Below are positions 1 to 36,229 of a stretch of DNA of 64,000 nucleotides, in pieces. The DNA lies in NCBI RefSeq assembly GCF_988242995.1, contig NZ_OZ547043.1, one strand, 5' to 3'. The notes under the pieces are model-generated. The model was not told the origin of the DNA. It saw only the letters and a program-made list of their open reading frames with translations, and ran no database searches. The translations under genes were made by a program, and so were the position numbers. The stretch's first letter is position 1, and each line of letters starts with the position of its first letter.

Positions 1-1
1 A

Positions 2-1015
2 GTACAGGCTAACGCCGTGAACTGGGCGACGGTGAAATTCTGGCAGCAAATGGGTCTGACCCGCGTGATCCTCTCTCGCGAACTGTCACTGGAAGAGATT
101 GAAGAGATCCGCAATCAGGTGCCAGATATGGAGATCGAAATCTTCGTTCACGGCGCGCTGTGCATGGCCTACTCCGGTCGCTGCCTGCTCTCTGGCTATA
201 TCAACAAGCGCGACCCGAACCAGGGCACCTGCACCAACGCCTGCCGCTGGGAGTACAACGTCCAGGAAGGGAAAGAAGATGACGTTGGCAACATCGTGCA
301 CAAGTACGAGCCGATTCCGGTGCAAAATGTTGAGCCGACGCTGGGTATCGGCGCACCAACTGACAAAGTGTTTATGATCGAAGAAGCCCAGCGTCCGGGC
401 GAGTATATGACCGCGTTTGAAGATGAGCACGGCACTTACATCATGAACTCGAAAGATCTGCGCGCTATCGCCCACGTTGAACGCCTGACCAAAATGGGCG
501 TGCATTCGCTGAAAATCGAAGGCCGTACTAAATCTTTCTACTATTGCGCACGCACCGCACAGGTTTACCGTAAAGCTATCGATGACGCCGCTGCGGGCAA
601 ACCGTTCGATACCAGCCTGCTGGAAACTCTGGAAGGTCTGGCGCATCGTGGCTATACCGAAGGTTTCCTGCGTCGTCATACTCACGACGATTATCAGAAC
701 TACGAATACGGTTATTCAGTTTCTGACCGCCAGCAGTTTGTTGGTGAGTTTACCGGTGAGCGCAAGGGCGACCTCGCGGCGGTAGCGGTGAAAAATAAAT
801 TCTCCGTTGGCGACAGCCTTGAGCTGATGACGCCGCAAGGCAACATTAATTTTACCCTTGAGCACATGGAAAACGCCAAAGGTGAAGCTATGCCGGTCGC
901 ACCAGGCGATGGTTATACTGTGTGGATCCCGGTGCCGCAGGATCTTGAGCTAAATTACGCGCTGCTGATGCGTAATTTCTCCGGGGAAACCACGCGTAAC
1001 CCCCACGGTAAGTGA
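2..1015 (+). CDS. yegQ: U32-family peptidase YegQ, C-terminal part (5' end lies outside window)
   Basis: ORF open from window edge, stop at 1013-1015; translation matches remembered YegQ C-terminus; lies immediately upstream of cyaR as in E. coli. Confidence 0.8.
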   Translation, partial: VQANAVNWATVKFWQQMGLTRVILSRELSLEEIEEIRNQVPDMEIEIFVHGALCMAYSGRCLLSGYINKRDPNQGTCTNACRWEYNVQEGKEDDVGNIVHKYEPIPVQNVEPTLGIGAPTDKVFMIEEAQRPGEYMTAFEDEHGTYIMNSKDLRAIAHVERLTKMGVHSLKIEGRTKSFYYCARTAQVYRKAIDDAAAGKPFDTSLLETLEGLAHRGYTEGFLRRHTHDDYQNYEYGYSVSDRQQFVGEFTGERKGDLAAVAVKNKFSVGDSLELMTPQGNINFTLEHMENAKGEAMPVAPGDGYTVWIPVPQDLELNYALLMRNFSGETTRNPHGK

Positions 1016-1587: not shown

Positions 1588-2751
1588 TCACTCATCATCT
1601 TCTGTTTCGTACTCCACATCAGAAAGCCTGACCTCAAGCTCTAAGGACGTCGTGAAGCCGCTATTATTCAGAAAATGTGTCACCTTAGTGATTGTCCAGT
1701 CCTGCTCGTCTATGACGCGCTTAAAGCCTGATACTTTAACCGGTGTTTCCGTGTAAATATCAGCACGACCGGTAGCCAGGCTGATGGAGAACTCCGCAAC
1801 GCCCCGTTGCAGTTTATCCCACTTCGCCTGAGCGGCACGCATGGCCTGTGCTTTCGTGGCATATACCGTGGTCAGGGCAAAAACGTTGTCAGCCTCACCG
1901 GCCATGTATTCACCTTCGCGCGCTTCCGGTACTTTTGGCGCTTTCTTCTGCCTGACCGGTTTTGCTTTCGGGTGCTCCAGTGCGCGCAGGTGTTTTTCTT
2001 TCTTTTTGCGTTTCAGTTTTACCTTCTGCTTTTGCGGCTTCGGGTCTTTGGTGTGTAACCACTTTGCCGTTACGCCGGTATAGGCTCCACGGTCAGCAAT
2101 CGCAAAATGATGGCGGTCGCCGTCGCTGCGGGTGATGGTGACCTGCGGGATTTTTTTACCGCTGGCCGTCACCCCCTGCCCCGCTTTGAGAAACAGCAGT
2201 TTTCCCATTTTTACCGACACCTCACCGCCGTTGCGTTCTGCAAGACGGGTCAGGAATTTCGCATCAGACTCCTGCGACTGGTCGATGTGCGGGATTTTAA
2301 TTCCGGCCAGTGACGGCGCGACACTGGCTTCCAGCTTGTTACGGGAGGCTATCGCCTCAACAATCGCACCGAGCGTGGTGTCATGCCATGAGCCTTCACG
2401 GCGGGAATTGAGCGTCCCGCGAAAATCTGCACTCCGGGCGCGGATGGTGACCACATCCGGTGCGCCCCGGTGTTCAACCTCATCAACGGTAAATTTCCCT
2501 TTGCATACCAGGGCAAAACCTTTCCAGCCGATATACACCGTCAGAACAGCACCACGAACCGGCAGTTCGACCTGCCCGTCGGCATCGTTCAGTTCAATAT
2601 CAAGCTGGTCAGCCTCAAAGCCCCGGTTATCCGTCAGGGTCATGCTCATCAGACGGTCGCTGATATTGCCGGTAATATCCCTGCTGTCGAGCATCAGCAT
2701 GTAATCCGGCGTCAGCGTACTGCCTGCATCAAATGTCAGCGCATCCAGCAT
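1588..2751 (-). CDS. D: Tail protein gpD
   Basis: 387 aa, P2 gpD length and position next to ogr. Confidence 0.9.
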   Translation of the reverse strand: MLDALTFDAGSTLTPDYMLMLDSRDITGNISDRLMSMTLTDNRGFEADQLDIELNDADGQVELPVRGAVLTVYIGWKGFALVCKGKFTVDEVEHRGAPDVVTIRARSADFRGTLNSRREGSWHDTTLGAIVEAIASRNKLEASVAPSLAGIKIPHIDQSQESDAKFLTRLAERNGGEVSVKMGKLLFLKAGQGVTASGKKIPQVTITRSDGDRHHFAIADRGAYTGVTAKWLHTKDPKPQKQKVKLKRKKKEKHLRALEHPKAKPVRQKKAPKVPEAREGEYMAGEADNVFALTTVYATKAQAMRAAQAKWDKLQRGVAEFSISLATGRADIYTETPVKVSGFKRVIDEQDWTITKVTHFLNNSGFTTSLELEVRLSDVEYETEDDE

Positions 2752-3230
2752 TATCCTGCCCCCGTCATACCCGTGAATCTGGTCGCCATACTGCCGGCCT
2801 TACCGATGAGCGACTCCGCCTGTTTACCAATATCGCCATAAAGCGCGGCCAGTGATTCATCAACGCGGGTGAGAGACAGCGTAAAATCAATTTTCCGGGG
2901 TGTGCCGTCTGCAAAGAAAATACTCCCTGTTTCACTCACCCTGCTGATGACATACATGCCGTAAATCATGCCGGTGCCATCCAGCAACGGCCACGCCCGG
3001 CCTTCCTCTGCCATCAGCCTGAGAGTGGTCATCGTCAGCTTGCCGCCGGTCAGTTCGGGATAAAGCACACCGGCAAGCGTGATGTTTTCCTCGCCAACGC
3101 CGAGAAACTGATAGGCATCCCGTTTACCGATACGGGAATTTGAAGGCCAGCGATAATCAGATTCACGCTGCATGGTCTGGTGTGGCAACGTCTGGCGCAT
3201 AAAAACAAACATACCTAACGCGAGCATCAT
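2751..3230 (-). CDS. U: Tail protein gpU
   Basis: 159 aa, P2 gpU length and position; stop-start overlap with D. Confidence 0.9.
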   Translation of the reverse strand: MMLALGMFVFMRQTLPHQTMQRESDYRWPSNSRIGKRDAYQFLGVGEENITLAGVLYPELTGGKLTMTTLRLMAEEGRAWPLLDGTGMIYGMYVISRVSETGSIFFADGTPRKIDFTLSLTRVDESLAALYGDIGKQAESLIGKAGSMATRFTGMTGAG

Positions 3231-3244
3231 TTTTCGTCACCTCC

Positions 3245-5692
3245 TTAACCGTCATGCATCATGCTGGCACGGGCGCGCGCACGTTTATCCCGCTCGTATT
3301 TTTCGAGCGCATCCTGTAACTGGCGGTCAAGCTGTGTCCCCGGCGCAGTACCGCCCGTCAGGTTGATGTGATATTCGTTTTTACTCTGGTCCACATAAGA
3401 GCGGCCAGCCAGTGCCGTGACTGGCTGATAAGCCTGATAGCCTGCATAAGAGCTGGTCGCCGGAATATAACCACCGGTGCCATACGTGGCGGCATGAGTT
3501 CTGGCGGCGGTCTGGTCAAGTGTGTCTGACTCTTTGTTGATGACCCCGAGCTTTTCCAGTACCCAGTCAATACCGCTGCGCAGTTTGTTGAACGCATTAA
3601 GCGGCAGCATCAACGCGTCAGCCAGTGCCTGCCCGAACATGACGCCCGTATCACGGCAACGGTTCAGGGTGTCCCGGGTGGCTTTGACCGGGGCAATCAG
3701 GTTTTTAAACCACTGCCACGCGGCCTGTAACTTTTCGCCCAGCCAGTCAAACACCGGCTTAAGTGGCGTGAACAGTTCCCCCACCGGCGCAAATGCCGCT
3801 TTCAGCCCTTCAACCACACCGCCAAAGAATGCGCTGACAGGCTCCCAGTATTTACGGATAAGTAACGCCCCGGCGACAATGGCGGCCACCACGGCCACAA
3901 CCGGCCAGCTAATCGCCCCGATGGCCGTCATAACAGCACTGCCAACCGTCGTGAAGATTGCTCCCATTGCGCCTGCTGCCGCGATGATGGCATTGATGCC
4001 GGTGATAACCGGCCAGGCTACGAGGCCAATGGCACCGATGACACCAATCAGCGCCAGTGCACCACCGACAATGATGCCGATGGTTGACGCCAGTGATTTG
4101 TTTTTCTGTATCCAGCCGTCGAGTTTTAACACATACTTTGTGGCCGTCTGCGTGAGCTTACGCAGTGCGCCTTCCTGCTGGTCAAACAGGTCAGTCCCCA
4201 CCGCCTCATAAGCGGACTGAAACTCCTTAAAGTCACCGCCGAGGTTGTCCTGCATGATATTTACCAGCTCGGCGGTCTTCCCGTCTGAGGCTTTAAACGC
4301 AGCGGTCAGTTTGTCCAGCTTTCCAGTTGAGGCGGCAGTCATCAGCACGGCGGCGGCTGAGCTGGCCTCCTCCCCGAAAATAGTTTTCATGTATTCAGCC
4401 TGCTGGGCAGTACCGAGCCGGTTTTTCTCAAAACTGGCCTGCATTTCTTTCAGAATGGTAAATACTGGTCGAGTATTCCCTTTACTGTCTGAGGTTTTCA
4501 CGCCAAGCTCTTTCAGTGCATCCCATGCTTTTCCCGTCGGTGCCTGCAGGCGGCTTAACACGGCACGGCTTCCCGTCCCCGCCATTGAACCGGTAATTTT
4601 TGCATCATGCAGCGCCCCGACCATTGCGGCGGTTTCTTCAATGCTGACACCAGCATTTTTTGCCACAGGTGCGGCATAGGTCAGCGCATCGCTCATGCCA
4701 TCAAAATCGGCGGCGGTTTTGTTCATCGTCATGGAGAGAACATCCCCGATATGAGCGACCTTATCGTTTGAAAGCTGAAAGGCGGATTTCATCCCCATCA
4801 GCAGGGCGGCGTTTTCTTCCATCGTGCGACGGTTCGCCAACGCCATATTCAGCGTGACCGGCGTTGCCGCCTGAATGGCATCAACATCCCCACCGGCTTT
4901 CGCAATAATAATCTGCGCACCGGCTGCATCATCTGCCGAGGCTGCGGTATTGTCGCCGAGCTGGCGCGCCTGCTTGCGTAGTGCAGCCATTTCGGCGGAG
5001 TCTTTTGCCACACCGAGCACAGCCTGCAATTCTGAGTTTTTCTGCGCAAACTCATAACCGGGCATCAGCAACTTAACTCCGGCCATCGTTCCCGCAGCAG
5101 CAATCCCCACACCGGCAGCGCCCACTGAGGCCATATTTCCGGCCAGTTCCTTTCCGGCCTGATAACGCTGTTTTACTGCGTTAAGTTTTGCCTGTTGTGC
5201 ACTGACACGCGCCAGCGCGTCACGCTGACGGTTAAGCTGTGCGGTGGTTTCACTGATACGGTTTTTCAGTCCCTGCTCATCATGTGCAAGATTGCGGGTA
5301 TTAATTCCCACAGCGGCCAGTTCCCGCTGCTGGCGTTTAATGGAATCTGTCAGGCGGTTATATTTCGCCTGTAAGTCCTCCGCCGCACGCTTTGCGGATT
5401 CCAGCACTTTCGCCTGAGCACGGGTCGGACGTTCAGTGTTTTTAAGCTGTGTGGCAAGGGCTTCGGCTTCCTGCCGTGCCTTTTCAAGTGCATGACCAGT
5501 CACGGCAAGCTGTGCGCTGGTCTTGCGAAATCCCTCAATACGGGATGCGTGACCGTTCAGCTCGCGCAGTGATTTTTGTGTTTCCCGGATATCCCCCGAC
5601 AGCGACTTACTCGCTGTGCGGATGGATTTAAACGGGCGGGATGCCTGGTCAACAGCCCTGAGCAATACCTGTAATTTTACATTGTTACTCAT
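3245..5692 (-). CDS. T: Tail tape-measure protein gpT
   Basis: 815 aa, Ala/Gly-rich coiled and hydrophobic segments typical of tape-measure proteins; P2 T position. Confidence 0.9.
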   Translation of the reverse strand: MSNNVKLQVLLRAVDQASRPFKSIRTASKSLSGDIRETQKSLRELNGHASRIEGFRKTSAQLAVTGHALEKARQEAEALATQLKNTERPTRAQAKVLESAKRAAEDLQAKYNRLTDSIKRQQRELAAVGINTRNLAHDEQGLKNRISETTAQLNRQRDALARVSAQQAKLNAVKQRYQAGKELAGNMASVGAAGVGIAAAGTMAGVKLLMPGYEFAQKNSELQAVLGVAKDSAEMAALRKQARQLGDNTAASADDAAGAQIIIAKAGGDVDAIQAATPVTLNMALANRRTMEENAALLMGMKSAFQLSNDKVAHIGDVLSMTMNKTAADFDGMSDALTYAAPVAKNAGVSIEETAAMVGALHDAKITGSMAGTGSRAVLSRLQAPTGKAWDALKELGVKTSDSKGNTRPVFTILKEMQASFEKNRLGTAQQAEYMKTIFGEEASSAAAVLMTAASTGKLDKLTAAFKASDGKTAELVNIMQDNLGGDFKEFQSAYEAVGTDLFDQQEGALRKLTQTATKYVLKLDGWIQKNKSLASTIGIIVGGALALIGVIGAIGLVAWPVITGINAIIAAAGAMGAIFTTVGSAVMTAIGAISWPVVAVVAAIVAGALLIRKYWEPVSAFFGGVVEGLKAAFAPVGELFTPLKPVFDWLGEKLQAAWQWFKNLIAPVKATRDTLNRCRDTGVMFGQALADALMLPLNAFNKLRSGIDWVLEKLGVINKESDTLDQTAARTHAATYGTGGYIPATSSYAGYQAYQPVTALAGRSYVDQSKNEYHINLTGGTAPGTQLDRQLQDALEKYERDKRARARASMMHDG

Positions 5693-6112
5693 TCGTGTTT
5701 CCGCTTCGCCGGAGCGCCTTTTCGCGCCATGTGATGAGTTCGGTCAGGCTCATGGGATACAGTTCTGATGGCGGCCAGTGAAATATCACTGCCACATCCG
5801 CCATCAGGTCATCGACCGAGAGATTTTTCGGGAACGTTACTGCACCGAGTTCGGCGACAAAAAACCGACCACCTTACCGGCCAGCGCCACAAGGTCAGGC
5901 AGTTCCAGCGCGGCGACTTCCTGCTCGGTCAGCATCGGTGCCGTCATGCGCGGCAGCACCTTAATCAGTGCATCGACTTCGGAGTTCGCGACCGCAGCCA
6001 GACTGACACCGCGCAGCGTCCCGGCATTAGGTTTCATCAGCGTGACCTGTTCGATAACCTGCTCACCACGCTTGACCGGATTGTCCAGGGTAATCACATT
6101 TTCTTTGTTCAT
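5685..6112 (-). CDS. E': gpE+E' product of programmed -1 frameshift (slip at TTTTTTG, + coords 5858-5864)
   Basis: Slippery heptamer T TTT TTG near 3' end of E; -1 frame stays open to a TAA at 5685-5687 overlapping the T start, giving 142 aa as in P2 E+E'. Confidence 0.7.
5837..6112 (-). CDS. E: Tail assembly chaperone gpE
   Basis: 91 aa, P2 gpE length and position. Confidence 0.85.
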   Translation of the reverse strand: MNKENVITLDNPVKRGEQVIEQVTLMKPNAGTLRGVSLAAVANSEVDALIKVLPRMTAPMLTEQEVAALELPDLVALAGKVVGFLSPNSVQ

Positions 6113-6168
6113 GGTTTTCTCACTTCTGAATCGGGGTTAACCGGTCAGCCAGGCTGACCGGATGAAAA

Positions 6169-6687
6169 TCACAGGCCGATATTGCGGCGGTGTTGCTCCA
6201 GCCGGTCGACGCCGTTCACCTTCTCAATCATGTTGATGGTGTCGATTTCGACCAGCTCCTTACCGTCCATCGTCAGCCGGAAATAGGTGCAGACCACGGA
6301 GATTTTCGACTCGGTGTCTTCTCCCTGTTTGCCCTCGCCGGTGTCGATTTCTTTCTGACGTCCACGCATGACCACCTCGACGGCCACCGTTTCGCCGGTA
6401 TCGTCGCGCTGGTAAGAGCCTGCAAAACGAATCGGTACGGAATCCACACCGGTTGCGGCGTAAAGCTCCCAGATAACCGAATCCGGGAAGCCACCGAGCG
6501 ACCACTCCATTGACAGCGCATCGTCATCAAGGCCGAGGTCTACCGGTGCGCTGCCGTTCATCCCCGCACCGCGATAGTTTTCGAGCTTACGGGTCAGTTT
6601 TGGTAGCGTGACGGACTTCGCGACGCCCTGATAGCTGTAGCCGTTCAGAAAGACGTTCATTAACTTGAGTTTGCGCGGCATTGCCAT
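6169..6687 (-). CDS. FII: Tail tube protein gpFII
   Basis: 172 aa, P2 FII length and position. Confidence 0.9.
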   Translation of the reverse strand: MAMPRKLKLMNVFLNGYSYQGVAKSVTLPKLTRKLENYRGAGMNGSAPVDLGLDDDALSMEWSLGGFPDSVIWELYAATGVDSVPIRFAGSYQRDDTGETVAVEVVMRGRQKEIDTGEGKQGEDTESKISVVCTYFRLTMDGKELVEIDTINMIEKVNGVDRLEQHRRNIGL

Positions 6688-6699: not shown

Positions 6700-7890
6700 T
6701 TAATTGCTGTTAACCGAGGTGACCAGATTTGCCAGGTATTTATCGGTAATACGCTGGCGCAGGGTCAGGTTTTCAAGAGGAGGCACCGGTGTATAGTCGT
6801 AGTCGATATACAGTTTTCCGGCCTTGAGGGTTTCCGCATCGTTGGATTCTTCGCTGAACCAGCAGGTCGCATCCACGATATAGCCGTTTGTTTTCAGCTC
6901 ACGGAATTTGGCATTGATGCCGTCAACGATGTCGCGAATCAGCGTTGCGGTGATGGGCTTGTCCACCGCCCACATGTGCGCCTCAGCCATCGTGTCGGCC
7001 ATCACCTGCGCGGTGCGGGTGTAGTTTTCAAAGAGGAACAGCGGGTCATCAGAGCAGGTACGGTTACCCCAGAATCGGAAACCGTCGCGGCGAATCAGCG
7101 TAGTGACGCCTGACTCGTTAAGCAGGTCAGCATCGGTGCCGGACTCCTGCAAATCCCAGAATACAGATGCGCTGATGCCGGTAACACCGTTTACCCCGAC
7201 GTTGGACAGCGTTTTATGCCAGCCCTGCTCCTGGTCGATTTTAGCGCGCAGACCCAGCGCACGGGCGGTGGCATACGCGGTGGCGGTGGTACTGGTGACC
7301 GTATCCCATGCGAGGAAATCCGGCCAGATGACCATCAGCTCACGCTGGCTGAAATTCTGGCGGTAGGCTTTCACCTCGGAAATGGTCTTACAGCCCCATG
7401 CGCTGATATATCCGAAAGCGCGCAGCTTCTGACAGACGGATGCCAGTGCAACAGCCACCTCTTTGGTATCCAGTCCCGGCACGCCGAGAATACGCGGTTT
7501 AACACCGGTTACCGACTCCGCCGCCAGCAGGGCTTTCAGTCCGGTGTACTGACCGTTTTCGTCGGTGGTGCCGATGATATTGGAAACGGTCTGCGCAAGT
7601 TTCGTTTCCTCGTCATCACCGGTGCCGTCTTCCACGCGCACGACAACGGTGACCGGTTTTGACTGGTCAGCGATGGCCTGCAACGATGCCGCCAGCGTGC
7701 CTTTTTTACCGGCCTTTGCAATTGCGCTCTGCACATTGGTAATCAGCACCGGTTTATTGAGGGGGAAGGTTTCCGCATCCGCATCGCTGGCCGTGCAGAC
7801 CATGCCGACAATGGCAGTGGATACGGTGGAAATGACGCGGGTGCCGTCGTTAATCTCCAGCACCTGCACGCCGTGATGATAGTCACTCAT
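6700..7890 (-). CDS. FI: Contractile tail sheath protein gpFI
   Basis: 396 aa, P2 FI length and position. Confidence 0.9.
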   Translation of the reverse strand: MSDYHHGVQVLEINDGTRVISTVSTAIVGMVCTASDADAETFPLNKPVLITNVQSAIAKAGKKGTLAASLQAIADQSKPVTVVVRVEDGTGDDEETKLAQTVSNIIGTTDENGQYTGLKALLAAESVTGVKPRILGVPGLDTKEVAVALASVCQKLRAFGYISAWGCKTISEVKAYRQNFSQRELMVIWPDFLAWDTVTSTTATAYATARALGLRAKIDQEQGWHKTLSNVGVNGVTGISASVFWDLQESGTDADLLNESGVTTLIRRDGFRFWGNRTCSDDPLFLFENYTRTAQVMADTMAEAHMWAVDKPITATLIRDIVDGINAKFRELKTNGYIVDATCWFSEESNDAETLKAGKLYIDYDYTPVPPLENLTLRQRITDKYLANLVTSVNSN

Positions 7891-8206: not shown

Positions 8207-8235
8207 TTGACCATTCCAATAAAATGAATTATGAT
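8207..8235 (+). promoter_or_regulatory. Near-consensus sigma70 promoter for cargo gene at 8258
   Basis: -35 TTGACC (8207-8212), 17-bp spacer, -10 TATGAT (8230-8235); followed by GGAGG RBS at 8247-8251. Confidence 0.45.
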
Positions 8236-8257
8236 AATCGTCAAATGGAGGTGCACA

Positions 8258-8902
8258 ATGATCAAACACACCGCAGCAGAAAGGGAAACCAACACTTCAG
8301 CTAAGCTGAATGAATACCAGTTGAACCTTCTGAAAAGAATTAACAACCTCGCTATTTCCCTGATGCCTGAATTTGAAGACAAAAACCAGGCAATTAATGC
8401 TATCACGCTGGATGATAGTTCACTGATGCAATTGCTCTACACCGTTCAACTCGAACAGAAGACTCGTGTCAATGACTACGAACTACGTAAAGTGCGCCGT
8501 CGTCGCGAAAATCTGGAACGATTTTATCGTGGGCTTCAGGAGTTAGGCGGTACGCTAAAGGTAAATGACGTGGTCGATATTCTTGGAATCACCCGCCAGG
8601 CGATCAACATTCGCGTTAAGAAGAACAAGCTTTTAGCATTCAAGCAGAACGGTGATTTTATTTTCCCGAAATTTCAGTTCACAGATAACGGGCTGATTCC
8701 CGGCTTTGAAGACGTAATGGCGGCATTTGACGAGAATACCCATCCAATGCTGAGGTTGGGTGTGCTGAAATCACCAATAGAGGTTAATAGCGAAGGCCTG
8801 AAAAAGACGCCGATTCAAATCATGCAGGACGGCGCTAAAAATAGTGAACTTAGTCTGGCTATCCGTGCCGCTAAACAGTTCGGAAATCATGTATCCAGTT
8901 AA
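8258..8902 (+). CDS. Cargo protein with HTH and C-terminal DUF2384-like (Xre/ParS/MbcA antitoxin-like) region plus a ~110-aa N-terminal extension of unknown function
   Basis: 214 aa from ATG 8258 with GGAGG RBS; HTH-like DILGITRQAINIRVKK; C-terminal HPMLRLGVLKSPIEVNSEGLKKTPIQIM resembles the toxin-binding domain of RES-Xre antitoxins; ~40% GC versus ~52% in flanking phage genes. Confidence 0.55.
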   Translation: MIKHTAAERETNTSAKLNEYQLNLLKRINNLAISLMPEFEDKNQAINAITLDDSSLMQLLYTVQLEQKTRVNDYELRKVRRRRENLERFYRGLQELGGTLKVNDVVDILGITRQAINIRVKKNKLLAFKQNGDFIFPKFQFTDNGLIPGFEDVMAAFDENTHPMLRLGVLKSPIEVNSEGLKKTPIQIMQDGAKNSELSLAIRAAKQFGNHVSS

Positions 8903-8913
8903 TTGTTTTAAAA

Positions 8914-8935
8914 AGAGGGGCTAGCCAGCCCCTCT
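8914..8935. terminator. Terminator hairpin shared by the convergent cargo genes
   Basis: Perfect stem agaggggc / gcccctct with 6-nt loop in the 38-bp gap between the two convergent stop codons; flanked by A/T runs. Confidence 0.5.
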
Positions 8936-8940
8936 TTGGT

Positions 8941-9651
8941 TTACATTGGTTCTGGCGTAATTTCGAATCCAAGCAGTTCTTCGAACATCTCTTCACCTGA
9001 CATCGTTCCTTTGTGCCACCCTTTAGGGAAGATACCTTCGTCATTTTCGATGTAACTGGCATAAGGCACCATCCCCTGAGGGGTATCGGTAAAGGCTGGT
9101 GTACTATCCGGTCGTTCCCAAAAGGCATAACAGCGTTTATAGCGTTTATGCCTTGAGGTATAGGCTATCCCGTCATAGTCACGCCCGAAATGTGTATAAA
9201 GATGTTCCATTAGCCATTGAGTAAAAGTGTAATCCTCGTTCTCTAAGCTATCCAAAGGAATATGTAACAACTCACAGAGCGCTACAACATCGATCACTTT
9301 CACTGGCCTCATGACATCCACAGAGCACATATAGTGTTGTGAAAGTACCGATTCAGGATAAGAAATCGTCCCTTCGAGATGGAGCAAACGCCCATAAGCT
9401 TCTGCCGCCGCCGTTAACGCAGAGTCAGAGGCATACCATACCGCCACACATCCCCCTGGGGGGTTGTATCGCCCACATTCATTTTCCTCAATTGGCGCTC
9501 TGAAGTTGATTGCGCTTTCATACAACGCCCTTTGATGACGCTTCAAAAGACCAGAGCCTGGTTGAATGTCAATCGCCGGAATACGTCCAGATTTATTTTT
9601 TGCAGCAATTCCTTGTGCAACAATATTTTTTTCAAATGTCCATTTGGTCAT
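8941..9651 (-). CDS. RES-domain protein (predicted NAD+-targeting toxin-like effector)
   Basis: 236 aa from ATG 9651 with AAGGAG RBS; motif ECGRYNPPGGCVAVWYASDSALTAAAEAY resembles the RES-domain core (GGRWNPP...YLADS...E in MbcT/ParT-type toxins); candidate Ser in GIAYTSRH; low GC. Confidence 0.6.
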   Translation of the reverse strand: MTKWTFEKNIVAQGIAAKNKSGRIPAIDIQPGSGLLKRHQRALYESAINFRAPIEENECGRYNPPGGCVAVWYASDSALTAAAEAYGRLLHLEGTISYPESVLSQHYMCSVDVMRPVKVIDVVALCELLHIPLDSLENEDYTFTQWLMEHLYTHFGRDYDGIAYTSRHKRYKRCYAFWERPDSTPAFTDTPQGMVPYASYIENDEGIFPKGWHKGTMSGEEMFEELLGFEITPEPM

Positions 9652-10345
9652 TTTTACTACTCCTTCTATAAACAGATTAAGCCATAGGCTCCTCTCCATA
9701 TTGATTGAAAATAATCCCTACCGTGCTTGCCCGGCAGGGGGTATGAGAACATGTGTATCTCAATCTCGATTATACCAAGCAAATTTTCTATTTTTCGGAA
9801 ATTTAGAGAGTTTTTTTAATGCTTCGCATGCCTTCTCGATGTATTGATGGGGCTGAAAAGAAGAAATAACGCAGGAAGTTTTACGGAAAGGAGAACTATA
9901 AAGATTTTTTTCAAGTGAATTAGAAATAAGAACTTCGCAGGATACTGCATTTTTAGTGAAGATGGGTTGAGTTTCTCAGCAAGAGTCCCGCGAGAGCCGT
10001 ATTGACAGCATGCATGACTCGGAGATTATTCCCCATGCAGGATGGTACACCAATGCAAGAGTTGGTTTACGCAAATGATTGGATGATCGCGATTACCGAC
10101 CGTACATTGCGCAAATAACGTTCTGCGTCGATGCTATTAAGATGCCCCGACCACACCGTACGACGGACGCCGTAGTGATCCGAGCTTAAGAATAGATAAT
10201 CTTTTCTCTCCGGATTCACCGTTCGCAGTGCGTTTTCCATAGCTGTCGCAAGCACAATACTTCCGCTACAGGCACAGAGCGGACTGTCAGATTAGGTTTT
10301 ACTCTGTGCCATAGATGAGTAATCTCACACCAGATCTAATACGAT

Positions 10346-10924
10346 TTATTGTGGCATTTCAGGCCATTCTATATCCGGAGCATCTTCCGGCTGAACGCGA
10401 TTCAGTAGCACACGGTATTTTTTCCAGTGTGTCAGGCTTAACTTTTCTTCCTCGGTAGCCATATCTAAATCGACAGCATCCTGCAGCGTGGCAATAATTT
10501 CACCTGCATATGCAATCAGCTCTTTCTTCTGAGAGTCAGCCGCTCTGACAAGCGCATCACGCTCTGCATTCTCATCATTCACCCACGCATTTCCGTTCCA
10601 TTTCTGATAATCCCCATCCGGGGAAATGGCTGTCACGTCTGGAGGTAATGCGCCAAGTTCAGAAATATAAATGGCTGCTCCCGTTTTCGTTTCGTAGACA
10701 GTCTTTCCGCGATGATCTTCCATCAACTCCCATTTTATTTCATCTGCATTGAAAACGGCTGCATAACCAGCCGGTATATCAGGCGGCGCAATATCTGTAC
10801 TGTTTGCAGGCAGACCTGTATACGGTGGAATATACGCGTCACTTTCCCCAATAAATTCATTGGTTCCATCAAGTAAATTAAATACGCGGATAGTTTGTGC
10901 TTCTGCACTCATTCTGAAAGCCAT
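10346..10924 (-). CDS. G: Tail fiber assembly protein gpG
   Basis: 192 aa, directly downstream of H with overlapping stop/start, P2 G position. Confidence 0.85.
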
Positions 10925-25554: not shown

Positions 25555-27387
25555 TCAAACAGAGCCCTGTTCAAAAACAGTATCAAAATATGGTAGGAGA
25601 GGATAAGCACACAGAAAGAAAATCAGGATGCATGCATATGTCGTTGTTTCATCGTAACAAGCATTAGTATATAAATTACCATGTGCTAATTTATGTCTTA
25701 AGGTTGCCCCACTCTTTCTGTTAAAAAGAACATCGATAGTCAAAACAAGATTTTTAGAAAAGATACTTTCCAAATCATCTCTGCATTTATCTAGAAGCTG
25801 AGAAATACTTGTTGACTCCTCTAATCCCTTATCCAAATATCTAGTAGCATCCTTTCCACTAAGCTCATAATAATAACGAACCATACCTTCCATTTGTGGT
25901 ATTAAAAGATAAGCTGCACTGATGTAATCTCCCTGCCATAATTTGTAAAAGCCCAAATTAAAAATCTCCCTAAACTCCGGCTTGACAATTGGACTAGTTG
26001 TAACCAATTTAACGAATGTTGACAACGTCAAGCCATGTTCTTGAGAAAGTACATAGCGAGCAGGTTCAAAGACACCGTTTACAAAAATCTTATGAGTAAT
26101 CTCGAAATTTCTTAGATATTGATCAATAACAACATCATCACTCATATCTTTTTTATTATCCAACGGCGGGATTGTATATATCTTACGCCCACTCTCATCA
26201 TTAATTTCTGTTCCAACAAAACTAGAGAATAAACTTTTTTCTGATAATCTTAAAACTTGTTCCCTCATGCTTTCAATATTTTCAATCGGTGTTTCACTCA
26301 TTAAAACTTTGAATATATCGGGCAAAGAACGCCCCGTCAGTTTTTTTTCACTTTCAGCAACCAAGTCACTAATATCAATAGAATGGCTTAAAGTGACATA
26401 TTCACTCCTTACTTCTTCTCTCAAATTAGCAAGTTGTTCCTTTAAATCTTCTATCTGTTGGCTATCACCACCGTACTGTCTTAATTCAGAGATAGCTGTT
26501 CTTAACCAAGAGATCTTACCCATATTATCAGGTCGTTCTGTTGCAACTTTAATAGTAATATTTGCAGATGCCAGTTTACATCTCTTGGCACGTTCATACT
26601 CACCATTTTTTTCATAAATAACTGCACTTGTCATATAAAGTGATTTTACAGCATCATAATATTTTTTATCTTTATGCTGCTCAGCCATCTTCTCAGCATT
26701 TTCCGCATACTGCAGATTATACCCATCAAAATCACGCACCATAAACCAAGTCAAATTATTGAAACCTTCAAAGATTAATCTTTCATTTTGAATACTATAA
26801 AGAGAATGAATGGCATTTTTAATCGCCATGTTTCCTTCTGATTTTCTAGGGTAGACCATTTTATTAATGTGCAAAGCCCTAGCAATATAATCACGAGCAA
26901 AAATAAAGCAATTTAAATCACTTTCATCCATGCTTTCGTTTTTTATTATTAGCTTTTCAATTGCTATATTTAGCATTTCAGCATAGGAATCAATTGCTTT
27001 AATTGCCACGTCTTTATTTTTCCGATTATTACACCAAACAACATCATATATTCTTGATAACAAAAATGGATTGGTTATTTTTTGAGAAACATATAAAAGA
27101 CAGTCATTCACCTGCTCATCAAAATCTTCAGGCAATATTGATCTTTTATTACCCCAAATCATTTGGGGTTCAAATGCTGGAGTGTTGTTAACAACTTGCA
27201 AATTGAAACTATATAGCATACCAAAAAGAGATGCTAATTTTTTCTCTTTGGGGTTTTCTGATGACTCAGCAATCCCATCCAGATATTTTTTTATTTTATG
27301 TGCATGAAATGTAACTGGTATATACATAAAAACACTATAATCTAGTGTTTCAAGCTCTTCCCTTGTAAGAACAAAGATATCATTCAT
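25555..27387 (-). CDS. Cargo protein, 611 aa, unknown family; C-terminal R-x4-H (HEPN-like) motif; candidate single-gene defence/abortive-infection effector
   Basis: Large ORF in the P2 tin/old position between cos and A; ~30-35% GC on sampled lines versus ~52% flanks; ATG 27387 with AAGGTG RBS (track start 27492 is a TTG); motif RHKLAH encoded at 25681-25698; no Walker A seen. Confidence 0.6.
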   Translation of the reverse strand: MNDIFVLTREELETLDYSVFMYIPVTFHAHKIKKYLDGIAESSENPKEKKLASLFGMLYSFNLQVVNNTPAFEPQMIWGNKRSILPEDFDEQVNDCLLYVSQKITNPFLLSRIYDVVWCNNRKNKDVAIKAIDSYAEMLNIAIEKLIIKNESMDESDLNCFIFARDYIARALHINKMVYPRKSEGNMAIKNAIHSLYSIQNERLIFEGFNNLTWFMVRDFDGYNLQYAENAEKMAEQHKDKKYYDAVKSLYMTSAVIYEKNGEYERAKRCKLASANITIKVATERPDNMGKISWLRTAISELRQYGGDSQQIEDLKEQLANLREEVRSEYVTLSHSIDISDLVAESEKKLTGRSLPDIFKVLMSETPIENIESMREQVLRLSEKSLFSSFVGTEINDESGRKIYTIPPLDNKKDMSDDVVIDQYLRNFEITHKIFVNGVFEPARYVLSQEHGLTLSTFVKLVTTSPIVKPEFREIFNLGFYKLWQGDYISAAYLLIPQMEGMVRYYYELSGKDATRYLDKGLEESTSISQLLDKCRDDLESIFSKNLVLTIDVLFNRKSGATLRHKLAHGNLYTNACYDETTTYACILIFFLCAYPLLPYFDTVFEQGSV

Positions 27388-27506
27388 CGTTTTCACCTTT
27401 TTCAGTATAAATTTGCACGCATTATTATTAGCAACATAATCATCAATAGTTAACACATGCAGATAGACAGCAATTTTACTATTATGCAACAAATTAAATC
27501 AGATGT

Positions 27507-29789
27507 TTATTGCTCTGAATAACAATAAAACCAACTCCACTCATCAGCGACCGGATACGTAAATTTTTTCCCGTTGTAATTTACGGTCGCTCCACGCGCC
27601 AGCGCCTCCATCTCCCATCGCTGCGGCCTGATACCGTTCTGAGCAAGGTCAACGCGGATACGGGTAATTTGCATTCGTTCCGACCGGGTCAGTCTGGCCG
27701 ATGGCGCTATTTCATGCGGTTTTAGCGGGCTTCCGTTTCTTTGCTGACGATTTAGCGTTCTCAGCCCGTGTTTTAATGCGCCCCTGAGCGCCTTCACGAC
27801 CTCCGGGTCATTCCATTCGATAACACCGTCATTAACCAGATTAAGCACTGCTGCGGCGTGCTCAGAAGGTGTGGGAGCCGGTAACGAAGTATCACCACCA
27901 GTGAGCTTTCCACAGTTATTGACAGGACTCCGAGGCGCGGCGATGCCGCTTTTTAAAGTCAAAGGCTCAACGACCGGAACTTTCGGCACAATGCGCCAGT
28001 CCGTCGTTCTGGTGATATGAATATGACGCGCGCCGAGATGCGGCGCGTAAATGCCGACCACTCTCTCAACTTCTTCCTCGTACTCGTTAACGTCATCCGA
28101 CGGGCTACGGGCAACCCTGACAGTCTGACAATCGCGCGGGACATTTGCCCCACCCTGCGCGCTGATATACAACGCAAAATCACCACTGTCTGCGGCGGCG
28201 CGTGCAGCCTCGACGCGTTCGTCAAACTCATCAGCAATGCTGACGCCGCGAGGCAATTTGCGTAGTTCACGGTAAGCCCCCATTGTCGGCAGGCCAACCG
28301 TTTTAAATTGCGGGATGCGCCACGTTGACGCCCATGCGGTAACAGCCGCGGCAGTGTCATTCAGCGGTCTGCCGGTATCATTATCGAGCTGACCATCCAG
28401 TGCATATCCGTCGATATTTTTTGAGATGTATTTCGCGATATACCCCGCAGCACCGCCCCGGTTAAGGTGTTTCGCCTGAAAACGGTTTCGCGCGGCTCCT
28501 CTTTCGTCGCCATCCTCTTTGAGCGCGTAGCGACGCATGATTTCAATAATCTGGTTACGCTGGCGTGGATTACAAAAAAGCATCATATGCCAGTGCGGCG
28601 TTCCGTCGTGGTGTGGCTCGACGACTCGCAAACCGTAGACCTGTAAATCATTATCCTTGAATGCCGTGCGCATCAGGCTCCAGATACGGCAGAGATAACG
28701 CTGCGCATCCTTTGGATTAAATGCCTCATCGTTCCAGCCGTGATTAAGCTGGACGGTTTTACTTTCGCCTTTTCCGACCTGACGTGTCGGGTGATACTTT
28801 GACGGCGCGGTCAGCGTGATAAACATCCCCACATCACCCTCTGCGGCGGCGTAACGCTCAATACCGGCAATGGTGTTCATCAGCTCCATCCGGCGAATTT
28901 CAGGATTAGAAATACTGCCCATCACCTTACTGATAAGGTCGATGCGCTCGCCGGTTTCCCTGTTTTCAAGGTCACACGATTTAAGAAATTCCAGATTTGC
29001 CTGGCGGCGTGCACGTACATCACGAATGGCATGTTTACTGGCATAAGGAGAACGGTCTTTATTCACCTCCCCGACAGCAATCAGTAACGCCTCATGCCAG
29101 CGCATACGCTGGCCTTTAAGCTGATGAGTCCACCACTCATCGTTAAACAGACGGGCAATGGCAGAATATGCCTGCCTCGTGGTCATCTGTCCTTTACGGT
29201 ATTTTTTCCAGTAGAGAGGGGAAATATTGAAAGCACGTGCAGCGCCAGCAACATGACCATAGAGGTGAGCCTGCGCCTCATCCGTAAACAGCGATTCTTT
29301 CTCGCCATGCGCATCCACCCAGGCATCGCAGAGTTCCTCATACATCATGAAAAGCTGCGATGAGATACGGGCAGCAAATTTTTTCAGCTCCTTGTCATTC
29401 ATTCCCGGCAGGCGCGCATACTGGTCGCGCTCTGCCAGAAACAGCAACGACGCATCGGTGTTCATTTCATGGCGCTGATTCACACGATCAATGCGCGGCC
29501 ATAAACGACGCTGAAAAGTGGATGTGAGGAAATAAAACCCGTGCACTGGGCTTTTATTGCGCCTGATGTAGTCATAGCGTGAAGTAAACAGCGAGCGCAA
29601 AAAGTAAGGCAGGCGGTTAATCGTGGATAAAACACCTTGCACCTGACGCATCTCATCACGTGTAAGAGGTCTTTCGCGCCCGACAGCCTCGCGTGGCGCG
29701 TTCCATGCATAAGCACCGGTAAACATCTTACCGGTGCCTGCGGCAAATGCTGACGGAGGGACAAAACGCCCGGAGGCTTTAACGGCCAT
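27507..29789 (-). CDS. A: Replication initiation protein gpA (rolling-circle nickase)
   Basis: 761 aa from ATG 29789 (MAVKASGRFVPP...), P2 A length; track start 29831 is a TTG. Confidence 0.9.
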   Translation of the reverse strand: MAVKASGRFVPPSAFAAGTGKMFTGAYAWNAPREAVGRERPLTRDEMRQVQGVLSTINRLPYFLRSLFTSRYDYIRRNKSPVHGFYFLTSTFQRRLWPRIDRVNQRHEMNTDASLLFLAERDQYARLPGMNDKELKKFAARISSQLFMMYEELCDAWVDAHGEKESLFTDEAQAHLYGHVAGAARAFNISPLYWKKYRKGQMTTRQAYSAIARLFNDEWWTHQLKGQRMRWHEALLIAVGEVNKDRSPYASKHAIRDVRARRQANLEFLKSCDLENRETGERIDLISKVMGSISNPEIRRMELMNTIAGIERYAAAEGDVGMFITLTAPSKYHPTRQVGKGESKTVQLNHGWNDEAFNPKDAQRYLCRIWSLMRTAFKDNDLQVYGLRVVEPHHDGTPHWHMMLFCNPRQRNQIIEIMRRYALKEDGDERGAARNRFQAKHLNRGGAAGYIAKYISKNIDGYALDGQLDNDTGRPLNDTAAAVTAWASTWRIPQFKTVGLPTMGAYRELRKLPRGVSIADEFDERVEAARAAADSGDFALYISAQGGANVPRDCQTVRVARSPSDDVNEYEEEVERVVGIYAPHLGARHIHITRTTDWRIVPKVPVVEPLTLKSGIAAPRSPVNNCGKLTGGDTSLPAPTPSEHAAAVLNLVNDGVIEWNDPEVVKALRGALKHGLRTLNRQQRNGSPLKPHEIAPSARLTRSERMQITRIRVDLAQNGIRPQRWEMEALARGATVNYNGKKFTYPVADEWSWFYCYSEQ

Positions 29790-30054
29790 ATGAGCCAAAA
29801 GCCTCTGAGCAACGCTTGCTGAGTTGCTCAACCTGCGCGTTTAAATCAGCAAAAGACTTTGCGCTTCCGGTCAGAATATCGTGATGCATCAGGCCGGAAA
29901 CGAGCTGGCTTAATTTCGGGTAATAACCAACCACCGCCAGCCATTCCTGACCGGCGTTTTTACCGCTTTCCGCTCTCTTTTTCTCGTGGAGAATAAACTG
30001 AAAGCTGTCACTGGTAACGACATAACGTTCGCCAATTTCGATACGAATACTCAT
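29779..30054 (-). CDS. Small early protein (P2 orf83-like position)
   Basis: 91-aa ORF between B and A, coupled to neighbours. Confidence 0.6.
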   Translation of the reverse strand: MSIRIEIGERYVVTSDSFQFILHEKKRAESGKNAGQEWLAVVGYYPKLSQLVSGLMHHDILTGSAKSFADLNAQVEQLSKRCSEAFGSYGR

Positions 30055-32347: not shown

Positions 32348-33361
32348 ATGGCAATCAAAAAACTCGATGATGGTCGATATGAAGTGGACATCCGCCCTAC
32401 TGGACGTAATGGAAAACGCATCCGTAGGAAGTTTGATAAGAAAAGCGAAGCTGTCGCTTTCGAGAAATACACGTTGTACAACCACCACAATAAAGAATGG
32501 CTATCAAAACCAACAGACAAGCGACGTCTGTCGGAGCTGACACAGATCTGGTGGGATTTAAAGGGTAAACACGAAGAGCATGGGAGATCTAATCTTGGAA
32601 AAATTGAAATCTTCACAAAAATAACGAATGACCCATGCGCATTTCAAATTTCGAAATCGCTTATCAGCCAGTACTGCGCCACCCGAAGAAGTCAGGGTAT
32701 TAAACCTTCGAGTATCAATCGTGATTTAACATGTATTAGCGGCATGTTTACAGCCCTGATTGAAGCGGAGTTATTCTTTGGTGAGCACCCTATCAGAGGG
32801 ACAAAAAGGCTTAAGGAGGAAAAACCAGACACAGGCTATCTCACGCAGGAAGAAATTGCCTTACTGCTTGCTGCTCTTGACGGCGACAACAAAAAGATTG
32901 CGATTCTTTGCCTGAGTACTGGAGCACGTTGGGGAGAAGCAGCTCGTTTGAAAGCAGAAAATATTATCCATAACCGCGTCACGTTTGTTAAAACGAAAAC
33001 AAACAAACCACGCACCGTCCCGATCTCAGAGGCTGTTGCCAAAATGATCGCGGATAACAAACGAGGTTTTTTATTCCCTGATGCTGATTACCCTCGCTTC
33101 AGACGAACAATGAAAGCAATAAAACCGGATTTGCCAATGGGGCAAGCCACACATGCACTAAGGCACAGCTTTGCCACTCATTTCATGATTAATGGAGGAA
33201 GTATTATCACGCTACAACGGATACTAGGTCACACACGGATTGAGCAAACTATGGTTTACGCTCATTTTGCGCCAGAGTACCTTCAGGACGCCATTTCTCT
33301 TAATCCGCTAAGAGGTGGTACTGAGGCTGAGAGTGTCCACACAGTGTCCACAGTAGAGTAA
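32348..33361 (+). CDS. int: Tyrosine integrase
   Basis: 337 aa, P2 Int length; catalytic-region motifs (ARWGE, HALRHSFATH, VYAHF); 80 bp from attR. Confidence 0.9.
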   Translation: MAIKKLDDGRYEVDIRPTGRNGKRIRRKFDKKSEAVAFEKYTLYNHHNKEWLSKPTDKRRLSELTQIWWDLKGKHEEHGRSNLGKIEIFTKITNDPCAFQISKSLISQYCATRRSQGIKPSSINRDLTCISGMFTALIEAELFFGEHPIRGTKRLKEEKPDTGYLTQEEIALLLAALDGDNKKIAILCLSTGARWGEAARLKAENIIHNRVTFVKTKTNKPRTVPISEAVAKMIADNKRGFLFPDADYPRFRRTMKAIKPDLPMGQATHALRHSFATHFMINGGSIITLQRILGHTRIEQTMVYAHFAPEYLQDAISLNPLRGGTEAESVHTVSTVE

Positions 33362-33440
33362 CGTTTAAGGGCTTTCAGTGGTAATTTATGCCGCTCAAAC
33401 CCGCATTGTACCGTTGAAAGCCCCTAATGGTGACACCCTA

Positions 33441-33467
33441 AATCTCCCTTACACGGGCTTATTTTTT
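33441..33467. repeat. attR core, 27 bp
   Basis: Exact copy of 1160-1186. Confidence 0.85.
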
Positions 33468-33637
33468 GTGCATAAACCATAGAGACGGATTGATCCCAGG
33501 TGACCGTCTTCCATTGACCACATCGATAGAATCTCCCTTCATAGCACGATGCCTTTCACGTAACGGCATCGTGCTCGCACAGGTTCCGGCTAAGCACAAC
33601 CAGAACGCGCATGTTTGACGCTTACCAAAAAATATTC

Positions 33638-35269: not shown

Positions 35270-35350
35270 TCACACTATTCTCTCTTGAACCAGGGAGAAT
35301 CCGTAATGCCGGATGCGGTGTAAAAACTTTATCCGGCATACAGAGCAATA

Positions 35351-36130: not shown

Positions 36131-36229
36131 TTACCCATATTCAATTGTGGCTAGTGTAAACGAAGGGGGACCATTGGTGAATGATCTGTTTTGCACAATA
36201 CCGGGCCAGCATCACGCTGGCCCGCGGTT

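What the first reader, a model, noticed from the sequence alone, without database searches (positions are those of the whole stretch)
5858..5864. Programmed -1 frameshift site producing gpE+E'
The slippery heptamer T TTT TTG (minus strand) sits 7 codons before the E stop. The -1 frame then stays open for 52 more codons and ends at a TAA overlapping the T start, giving exactly the 142-aa length expected for P2 E+E'. This tail-chaperone frameshift is conserved in the prophage.
Basis: partly seen in the sequence, partly recalled or inferred. Interest (0 to 1): 0.25.

Follow-up and report, generated by a model that had tools for sequence, protein, structure and literature searches.

The report
Known P2 prophage tail-chaperone frameshift site
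This is the well-known spot in phage P2's tail gene E where about one ribosome in ten slips back one base to make a longer tail-assembly protein (E+E'); it sits intact in an E. coli P2-like prophage, so the finding is correct but ordinary.

Summary
On the minus strand, gene E (6112..5837, 91 aa) contains T TTT TTG at 5864..5858 in the correct phase (ggT TTT TTG = G83 F84 L85). It ends at TAA 5687..5685, inside the tape-measure gene T start (ATG 5692). The fusion is 85+57 = 142 aa.

The fusion matches Pfam Phage_TAC_7 in frame 0 and Phage_P2_GpE in frame -1 (1.2e-21). It is 141/142 identical to P2 gpE+E', and the P2 reference record annotates the -1 frameshift at the homologous site.

Sixteen divergent Peduoviridae (33-77% aa identity) all carry an in-phase X XXY YYZ heptamer in the 0/-1 overlap. 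Four of these have GC-rich loci (GC3 87%) and still keep T TTT TTG. Wobble-position variation moves from frame 0 to frame -1 across the site. No conserved RNA structure was found downstream.

The element is an already known programmed -1 ribosomal frameshift of the tail assembly chaperone pair, present in about 29% of complete E. coli genomes. Interest is low.

One loose end remains. This heptamer is a mediocre slip site in E. coli reporter assays, and a weak SD-like signal lies upstream of it in many relatives. That signal is a possible, unproven stimulator.

The parts
5837..6112 (-). Gene E: frame-0 tail assembly chaperone, 91 aa plus TAA stop
   Evidence: ORF list and translation. Pfam PF10109 Phage_TAC_7 over residues 7-85, E 2.6e-12. 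PHROG 103 'tail protein', 3.8e-43. 34 of 39 variable columns among 61 close variants fall on its third codon position.
5858..5864 (-). Slippery heptamer T TTT TTG (frame-0 codons ggT TTT TTG = G83 F84 L85)
   Evidence: Sequence. Invariant in 79/79 close loci. An in-phase XXXYYYZ is present in 16/16 divergent Peduoviridae, and it is TTTTTTG in 12 of them. It is kept in four relatives whose loci have GC3 87%, where Phe is otherwise TTC 19: TTT 2. The same site is annotated as the frameshift site in P2.
5685..5858 (-). E' segment: the -1 frame read after the slip, 57 codons plus TAA (5687..5685)
   Evidence: Translation. PHROG 1756 covers fusion residues 82-142, 2.5e-28. Variable columns downstream of the E stop favour the third position of the -1 frame (12 vs 5 vs 5), and substitutions are 11 synonymous: 10 non-synonymous in frame -1 against 4:17 and 3:18 in the other two frames.
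5697..5804 (-). Conserved GpE domain inside E' (fusion residues 104-139, MADVAVIFHWPPSE...WREKALRRSG)
   Evidence: Pfam PF06528 Phage_P2_GpE, E 1.2e-21. The motif ADIAxxFHWxP...WRExA..RSG recurs in the -1 peptides of all 16 relatives.
3245..5692 (-). Gene T (tape measure, 815 aa); its ATG overlaps the E' stop (ATGAGTAA)
   Evidence: Pfam PF10145 PhageMin_Tail, 1.8e-45. Same length as P2 T.
6169..6687 (-). Gene FII (tail tube, 172 aa), immediately upstream of E
   Evidence: Pfam PF04985 Phage_tube, 3.8e-60.
6700..7890 (-). Gene FI (tail sheath, 396 aa), first gene of the operon
   Evidence: Pfam sheath domains. The upstream region aligns to the P2 pF promoter/leader region at 88% mean column identity.
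1588..3230 (-). Genes U (2751..3230, 159 aa) and D (1588..2751, 387 aa), the end of the FETUD operon
   Evidence: Pfam PF06995 Phage_P2_GpU, 2.8e-44. ORF lengths equal those of P2 U and D.
5868..5876 (-). SD-like TAAGGTGGT, 4-12 nt upstream of the heptamer (hypothetical stimulator only)
   Evidence: Sequence. Anti-SD duplex -5.1 kcal/mol, in the top 12% of windows in this locus. In the heptamer-anchored average over 14 representatives, the strongest of 250 offsets lies at -15/-14. Weak and post hoc.

Best explanation
This is the programmed -1 ribosomal frameshift site of the tail-assembly-chaperone gene pair E/E+E' of a P2-like (Peduovirus) prophage in E. coli.

Most ribosomes translating E from the late FETUD mRNA stop at TAA 5839..5837 and make the 91-aa gpE. 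A minority slip when tRNA-Phe (UUU) is in the P site and tRNA-Leu (UUG) is in the A site. Both tRNAs slip one base 5' and re-pair with UUU/UUU. The next codon read is GUC (from G5858), and translation continues in the -1 frame for 57 codons. The product is the 142-aa gpE+E', which terminates inside the start of the tape-measure gene T.

By analogy with lambda gpG/gpGT, the shared E part coats the tape measure, and the E' domain on the rare fusion recruits tail tube subunits. The slip rate therefore fixes the E : E+E' ratio needed for tail assembly.

Shown here: the anatomy, the homology of both frames, conservation of an in-phase slippery heptamer, and the coding signature switching frame at the site. 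Taken from the literature and annotation: that the shift occurs in P2 and yields the 91-aa and 142-aa products (PMC3091744), and that its efficiency is 2-3 times that of lambda G-T (PMC5009743). Essentiality of E' is from the P2 record's note and my memory of Christie et al. 2002. Inferred by analogy: the chaperone mechanism.
For: - Anatomy and phase of the site.
- The fusion hits PF10109 over residues 7-85 and PF06528 over residues 104-139, E 1.2e-21. PHROG 1756 spans the junction, residues 82-142.
- The 601-nt segment is 100% identical to a Peduovirus P2 record and 95-100% identical to 74 phage records.
- The P2 and L-413C records annotate a two-piece E+E' CDS with a -1 frameshift at the same heptamer. 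The fusion is 141/142 identical to P2's.
- tblastn with the fusion finds 416 phage records; 397 cover at least 80% of the query, and 38 of the 40 listed rows match as two joined pieces.
- 16/16 sampled relatives (33-77% identity) have an in-phase XXXYYYZ in the 0/-1 overlap: TTTTTTG in 12, TTTTTTT in 2, AAATTTT in 1, GGGAAAG in 1.
- The heptamer is retained against strong GC3 bias.
- Third-position variation switches from frame 0 to frame -1 across the site.
- The gene order sheath-tube-E-T-U-D is intact, with P2 gene lengths.
- Literature: PMC3091744 and PMC5009743.
Against: - Nothing here measures frameshifting in this prophage.
- U_UU.U_UU.G is not listed among the efficient heptamers in E. 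coli reporter assays (PMC4066793).
- I found no conserved stimulatory structure, so how the reported efficiency is reached is unexplained.
- RefSeq/PGAP annotates E' as a separate 39-aa gene.
- The chaperone role of E/E+E' is inferred by analogy to lambda, not tested here. No solved structure of a sequence relative exists.
Confidence: 0.95

Rival explanations
1. E' is a free-standing small gene. It would be translated independently from the internal ATG at 5804..5802 into a 39-aa 'GpE family' protein, with no recoding.
For: RefSeq/PGAP annotates exactly this 120-nt CDS in E. coli genomes that carry the identical sequence. Several phage records do the same. The Pfam PF06528 model begins at this Met.
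Against: - The Met is not conserved. The aligned residue is I, A or Y in 5 of 17 loci and V in 3, whereas the slippery heptamer is present in all.
- The -1 frame is open back to the heptamer in every relative.
- PHROG 1756 homology extends upstream of the Met to the junction.
- The P2 record and the literature describe a fusion sharing E's N-terminus.
Confidence: 0.03
2. The fusion arises mainly by transcriptional slippage. RNA polymerase would add one extra U on the T6 run, possibly helped by the weak upstream hairpin. The resulting mRNAs are read in frame as ...G F F V A E...
For: The site is a homopolymeric T6 run. It is preceded by a terminator-like weak hairpin (8 pairs, 4 of them G-C) at 5885..5864.
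Against: - Relatives use non-homopolymeric tandem-slip heptamers (A AAT TTT, G GGA AAG). These support tRNA re-pairing but not polymerase slippage.
- From general knowledge, a run of 6 is short for efficient slippage, which usually needs 9 or more.
- The hairpin is not conserved.
- The heptamer is always in X XXY YYZ phase, which polymerase slippage would not require.
- The literature treats it as translational.
Confidence: 0.04
3. The heptamer and the open -1 frame are coincidental, and no second product is made.
For: TTTTTTG alone is common (27 in the window against 21 expected). A 57-codon open -1 frame has P of about 0.024.
Against: - The Pfam hit in the -1 frame has E 1.2e-21.
- The -1 frame carries a codon-position and synonymous-substitution signature.
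- The two-frame architecture and the slip site are conserved across 16 divergent genera.
Confidence: 0.01

Closest known systems
Bacteriophage P2 gpE / gpE+E' programmed -1 frameshift (Christie et al. 2002, J Bacteriol 184:6522; P2 record NC_001895, genes P2p25/P2p26)
   Same: Same heptamer, same phase, same position (6 sense codons before the E stop), same 91-aa and 142-aa products, and the same overlap of the E' stop with the T start. Nucleotide identity is 99% and the fusion is 141/142 identical.
   Different: N29 replaces S29. The E stop is TAA instead of TGA, which is synonymous (GTA/GTG Val) in the -1 frame. There is one further change that is synonymous in the -1 frame (TTC/TTT). The site here lies in an integrated prophage with different cargo genes in the variable slots.
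Lambda gpG / gpGT tail assembly chaperone frameshift, and the conserved 'G-T' frameshift of long-tailed phages (Levin et al. 1993; Xu, Hendrix and Duda 2004, 2013, 2014)
   Same: Two overlapping ORFs lie between the major tail/tube gene and the tape-measure gene. [quoted passage not shown]
   Different: No sequence similarity was detected: the Pfam families hit are PF10109 and PF06528, not lambda's. The heptamer is T TTT TTG rather than G GGA AAG. The reported efficiency is 2-3 times higher than lambda's (PMC5009743). The tail here is contractile.
E. coli dnaX and IS911/IS3 -1 frameshift signals (heptamer plus upstream SD-like element plus downstream hairpin or pseudoknot)
   Same: A tandem-slip heptamer. 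A possible SD-like element lies 4-12 nt upstream.
   Different: There is no significant or conserved downstream structure and no Rfam frameshift element. The A-site codon is UUG, not the efficient AAG. The frameshift product is longer than the frame-0 product, whereas in dnaX it is shorter.

Membership tests
P2-type gpE/gpE+E' tail assembly chaperone frameshift (Peduoviridae) | Gene pair located between the tail tube gene (FII) and the tape-measure gene (T) in a sheath-tube-E-T-U-D operon | tested here: met
   ORFs and Pfam assignments for FI, FII, T, U, plus D by position and length. The order and lengths are identical to P2.
P2-type gpE/gpE+E' tail assembly chaperone frameshift (Peduoviridae) | The frame-0 product belongs to the E-type tail assembly chaperone family | tested here: met
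   PF10109 Phage_TAC_7, 47 bits against a cutoff of 25. PHROG 103, 3.8e-43.
P2-type gpE/gpE+E' tail assembly chaperone frameshift (Peduoviridae) | The -1 frame extension carries the GpE (E') domain | tested here: met
   PF06528, 76.3 bits against a cutoff of 23. PHROGs 1756 and 6416.
P2-type gpE/gpE+E' tail assembly chaperone frameshift (Peduoviridae) | An in-phase X XXY YYZ slippery heptamer (T TTT TTG in P2) inside the 0/-1 overlap near the 3' end of E | tested here: met
   The site coincides with the annotated P2 frameshift site.
P2-type gpE/gpE+E' tail assembly chaperone frameshift (Peduoviridae) | Products of 91 aa (E) and 142 aa (E+E') from one start codon | tested here: met
   The published sizes are given in PMC3091744.
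P2-type gpE/gpE+E' tail assembly chaperone frameshift (Peduoviridae) | Frameshifting actually occurs (about 10% by my memory of Christie et al. 2002) and E' is essential for tail assembly | not testable with these tools
   Known only from the literature and annotation for P2 itself. Not measured for this prophage.
Lambda G/GT-type tail assembly chaperone frameshift (functional class, Xu et al. 2004) | Two overlapping ORFs between the major tail gene and the tape-measure gene, joined by a -1 slip that gives a minor, longer product | tested here: met
Lambda G/GT-type tail assembly chaperone frameshift (functional class, Xu et al. 2004) | Sequence homology to lambda gpG/gpT | tested here: not met
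   The Pfam scan of the fusion returned only PF10109 and PF06528. This is functional analogy, not family membership.
dnaX/IS-type stimulated -1 frameshift signal | A stable downstream hairpin or pseudoknot 5-9 nt after the heptamer | tested here: not met
   The downstream 88 nt gives z = -1.3. The downstream 60 nt in 18 loci gives z from -1.5 to +1.6 with no common fold. No Rfam match reached threshold. This agrees with PMC3091744.
dnaX/IS-type stimulated -1 frameshift signal | An upstream SD-like element pairing with the 16S 3' end | tested here: inconclusive
   TAAGGTGGT at 5876..5868 gives -5.1 kcal/mol, in the top 12% of local windows. 8/17 loci fall in their own top 10%. The anchored average peaks at -15/-14 among 250 offsets. 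However, the sequences are related and the window was chosen post hoc.

The most novel reading that the evidence does not exclude
The P2-type site may carry an unrecognised primary-sequence stimulator. The heptamer U UUU UUG is not among the efficient motifs in E. coli reporter assays, and no downstream structure exists. Yet many Peduoviridae share an SD-like purine-rich element about 7-15 nt upstream and a semi-conserved flank (cgg TTTTTTG nTGCCGAAg). rRNA-mRNA pairing or flanking context could be what raises the slip rate to the reported level and tunes the E : E+E' ratio.
Probability: 0.2. Interest if true: 0.3.

Novelty: already known. Interest (0 to 1): 0.07.

Why it matters
The practical value is for annotation. 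Automated pipelines split this gene into a 'phage tail assembly protein' and a spurious free-standing 39-aa 'GpE family' CDS, and the E/E' segment was found in 1582 of 5426 complete E. coli genomes. Recognising the site gives the correct 142-aa product and is one marker of an intact tail-assembly module in the prophage. Biologically it adds nothing new, because the site, its products and its conservation among P2-like phages are published. The only open point is what stimulates slippage on a heptamer that is mediocre in E. coli reporter assays.

Tried and rejected
- **Downstream stimulatory structure.** Folding the 88 nt after the heptamer gave z = -1.3. The 60 nt downstream in 18 loci showed no significant or shared fold. 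Rejected.
- **Terminator-like hairpin plus T-run at 5885..5859**. It is weak (4 G-U pairs) and not conserved in relatives. Rejected as a functional terminator or as required for slippage.
- **Rfam scan of 5400..6400 at E <= 1.** It returned only two sub-threshold chance hits, flpD and UCA1.
- **NCBIfam scan of the fusion.** No family matched.
- **PDB sequence search.** No relative with a solved structure.
- **Plus-strand ORFs antisense to E** (5768..6157 and 5778..6140). I treated these as shadow ORFs, because 34/39 variable columns fall on E's own third codon position.
- **Independent initiation of E' at ATG 5804.** Rejected because that Met is not conserved.
- **The original Christie et al. 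2002 paper.** It could not be fetched. The approximately 10% efficiency and the essentiality of E' rest on my memory of it, on reviews and secondary citations, and on the P2 record's notes.
- **First Python attempt** failed on a file-name assumption and was rerun.

Full report
**Observation.** Reading the minus strand and the ORF list shows the P2-type tail operon. Its genes are FI (7890..6700, 396 aa), FII (6687..6169, 172 aa), E (6112..5837, 91 aa), T (5692..3245, 815 aa), U (3230..2751, 159 aa) and D (2751..1588, 387 aa). Pfam confirms the sheath, tube, tape-measure and GpU assignments.

The T-run occupies 5864..5859, followed by G5858. E's codons start at 6112-3k, so the local reading is GGT TTT TTG (G83 F84 L85). 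This makes T TTT TTG an X XXY YYZ heptamer in the phase that tandem tRNA slippage requires. After L85 come six sense codons (SPNSVQ) and then TAA.

The -1 frame starting at G5858 translates as VAELGAVTFPKNLSVDDLMADVAVIFHWPPSELYPMSLTELITWREKALRRSGNTNE*, which is 57 codons. Its TAA (5687..5685) lies inside ATGAGTAA, where ATG 5692..5690 starts T. The fusion is therefore 85+57 = 142 aa.

**Is it more than chance?** The bare motif is not unusual: there are 27 copies in the window against 21 +/- 4 in shuffles. A 57-codon open -1 frame has P of about 0.024, given the stop density in the -1 frames of the neighbouring genes. The decisive evidence lies elsewhere.

- The conceptual fusion hits PF10109 (Phage_TAC_7, 'tail assembly chaperone proteins E, or 41 or 14') over residues 7-85. 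It also hits PF06528 (Phage_P2_GpE) over residues 104-139 with E = 1.2e-21.
- PHROG 1756 aligns across the junction, residues 82-142.
- Among 79 close relatives from IMG/VR plus P2 and L-413C (61 distinct sequences, at least 97% identical), 34 of 39 variable columns upstream of the heptamer fall on frame-0 third positions. Downstream of the E stop, the preference moves to the third position of the -1 frame (12 vs 5 vs 5). Substitutions there are 11 synonymous: 10 non-synonymous in frame -1, against 4:17 and 3:18 in the other frames. The heptamer itself is invariant in 79/79.

**Identity.** The 601 nt around the site are 100% identical to a 'Peduovirus P2' record and 95-100% identical to 74 phage records. 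The P2 reference NC_001895 annotates E (91 aa) and a two-piece E+E' CDS noted 'shares amino terminus with gpE; -1 frameshift; essential tail protein'. It also carries a 'site of -1 translational frameshift' feature at the same heptamer, and L-413C is annotated likewise. The E..E' segment aligns at 99% to both records without gaps.

The fusion differs from P2's by one residue, N29S. The E stop is TAA here and TGA in P2, which is silent (GTA/GTG) in the -1 frame.

The host is E. coli. The flank carries yegS, yegR and the gat genes, and the prophage lies between a U32 peptidase gene and its integrase. The structural region is 83-85% covered at 95.5-97.4% identity by Peduovirus isolates. The E/E' segment occurs in 1582 of 5426 complete E. 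coli genomes.

**Conservation at depth.** tblastn with the fusion finds 416 phage records. Of these, 397 cover at least 80% of the query, and 38 of the 40 listed rows match as two joined pieces. Hosts include Burkholderia, Klebsiella, Ralstonia, Pseudomonas, Mannheimia, Vibrio, Shewanella and Microcystis.

I fetched 16 divergent loci with 33-77% identity. In each I located the E frame, the open -1 frame and any in-phase XXXYYYZ within the overlap. All 16 have one:

| Heptamer | Loci |
|---|---|
| T TTT TTG | 12 |
| T TTT TTT | 2 |
| A AAT TTT | 1 |
| G GGA AAG | 1 |

The distance from the heptamer to the E stop ranges from 4 to 22 codons, so what is conserved is the slip site and not the stop. 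In four relatives with GC-rich loci (63-67% GC, GC3 87%), Phe is TTC 19: TTT 2 and TTG accounts for 11 of 131 Leu codons outside the site. Yet the site itself is still xxT TTT TTG. This is nucleotide-level selection. Lynch et al. 2010 reached the same conclusion for three Burkholderia phages and give the P2 facts: TTTTTTG, 91 aa and 142 aa, and no downstream hairpin (PMC3091744).

**Mechanism.** The best-supported reading is classical tandem -1 ribosomal slippage. tRNA-Phe on UUU in the P site and tRNA-Leu on UUG in the A site re-pair on UUU/UUU. Decoding then resumes at GUC in the -1 frame.

The occurrence of non-homopolymeric heptamers (A AAT TTT, G GGA AAG) at the same place in relatives argues for tRNA re-pairing rather than polymerase slippage on a T-run. 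Independent initiation of E' at ATG 5804, which is how PGAP annotates it as a 39-aa 'GpE family phage tail protein', is unlikely. That Met is replaced by I, A or Y in 5 of 17 loci and by V in 3, while the -1 frame is always open back to the heptamer.

The functional role is inferred by analogy with lambda gpG/gpGT as summarised in Atkins et al. 2016 (PMC5009743). In that model, E coats the tape measure, and the rare E+E' recruits tube subunits through its E' domain. I did not test this. No relative has a solved structure.

**Stimulators.** I found no significant downstream structure. The 88 nt downstream gives z = -1.3. The 60 nt downstream in 18 loci gives z from -1.5 to +1.6 with no shared fold. 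Rfam returned only two sub-threshold chance hits. A weak terminator-like hairpin that abuts the T-run is not conserved.

This leaves a small puzzle. Sharma et al. 2014 report that in E. coli the efficient motifs have A-site codons allowing cognate re-pairing (AAG, UUY). U_UU.U_UU.G is not listed among the efficient ones, and motifs without stimulators reach only about ten times a 0.05% background (PMC4066793). Yet P2 frameshifting is described as 2-3 times more efficient than lambda's (PMC5009743).

An exploratory scan gave two results. The 14 nt at -19..-6 pair with the 16S 3' end better than 90% of local windows in 8 of 17 loci; for the window itself the figure is -5.1 kcal/mol, top 12%. In a heptamer-anchored average over 14 representatives, the strongest of 250 offsets lies at -15/-14, with a mean of -3.46 against -0.72 +/- 1.05 kcal/mol, and there is a second peak at +10..+13. 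The flank cgg TTTTTTG nTGCCGAAg is semi-conserved.

The sequences are related, the conserved [K/E]-V codons could explain the signal, and the window was chosen after looking at the data. This is therefore a hypothesis only.

**Verdict.** The feature is the already known P2 E/E+E' programmed -1 frameshift, intact in a common E. coli prophage. It is correct but ordinary, so interest is low.

Noticed in passing
window 8231..9699: Two convergent cargo ORFs lie in the P2 Z/fun variable slot, between the tail-fibre-assembly gene (10346..10924) and FI. One is a 252-aa RES-domain protein (8941..9699, minus strand; Pfam PF08808 1.5e-12; PGAP calls it 'RES family NAD+ phosphorylase'). The other is a 223-aa ORF (8231..8902, plus strand) with no Pfam or PADLOC hit. 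The whole cassette is rare, found complete in 9 of 5426 complete E. coli genomes. Another prophage with an identical E/E' carries an Sll1717-family P-loop ATPase in the same slot. It could be a toxin-based or anti-phage cargo.
   Followed up: partly
window 25555..27492 (minus strand): A 645-aa protein with DUF7380 and a weak DUF4209 match hits the PADLOC candidate defence family PDC-S39 (2.9e-84). It lies just downstream of replication gene A (27507..29831), i.e. in the P2 old/tin variable slot.
   Followed up: partly
window 5802..5804 / 5685..5804; locus L099 4897..5016: RefSeq/PGAP annotates E' as a free-standing 39-aa 'GpE family phage tail protein' CDS instead of as the frameshift fusion. 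The E/E' segment is present in about 29% of complete E. coli genomes, so the mis-annotation is probably systematic. The Pfam PF06528 model also begins at that internal Met.
   Followed up: yes
window 5859..5885 (minus strand): An intrinsic-terminator-like feature: a weak 8-bp hairpin (4 G-C and 4 G-U pairs) directly followed by the T6 run of the slip site. It is not conserved in relatives, so it is probably fortuitous.
   Followed up: yes
window 5868..5876 and 5843..5857 (minus strand); loci L083-L098: An SD-like purine-rich element lies upstream of the heptamer, and the flank is semi-conserved (cgg TTTTTTG nTGCCGAAg) across divergent Peduoviridae. Anti-SD pairing peaks at -15/-14 and again at +10..+13 relative to the heptamer.
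   Followed up: partly
locus L099 5009..7455 (E. coli NS-NP030): In another E. coli genome with a 100% identical E/E' segment, the tape-measure gene T is annotated as a frameshifted pseudogene. An intact slip site therefore does not guarantee an intact tail module. In the window, T is full length at 815 aa.
   Followed up: no
window 1..1015 and 32348..37500: The prophage lies between a U32 peptidase gene (17..1015) and its integrase (32348..33361). Beyond the integrase come yegR, yegS and the gat operon. From my memory, this is the chromosomal region where E. coli K-12 carries the cryptic P2 remnant ogrK.
   Followed up: partly
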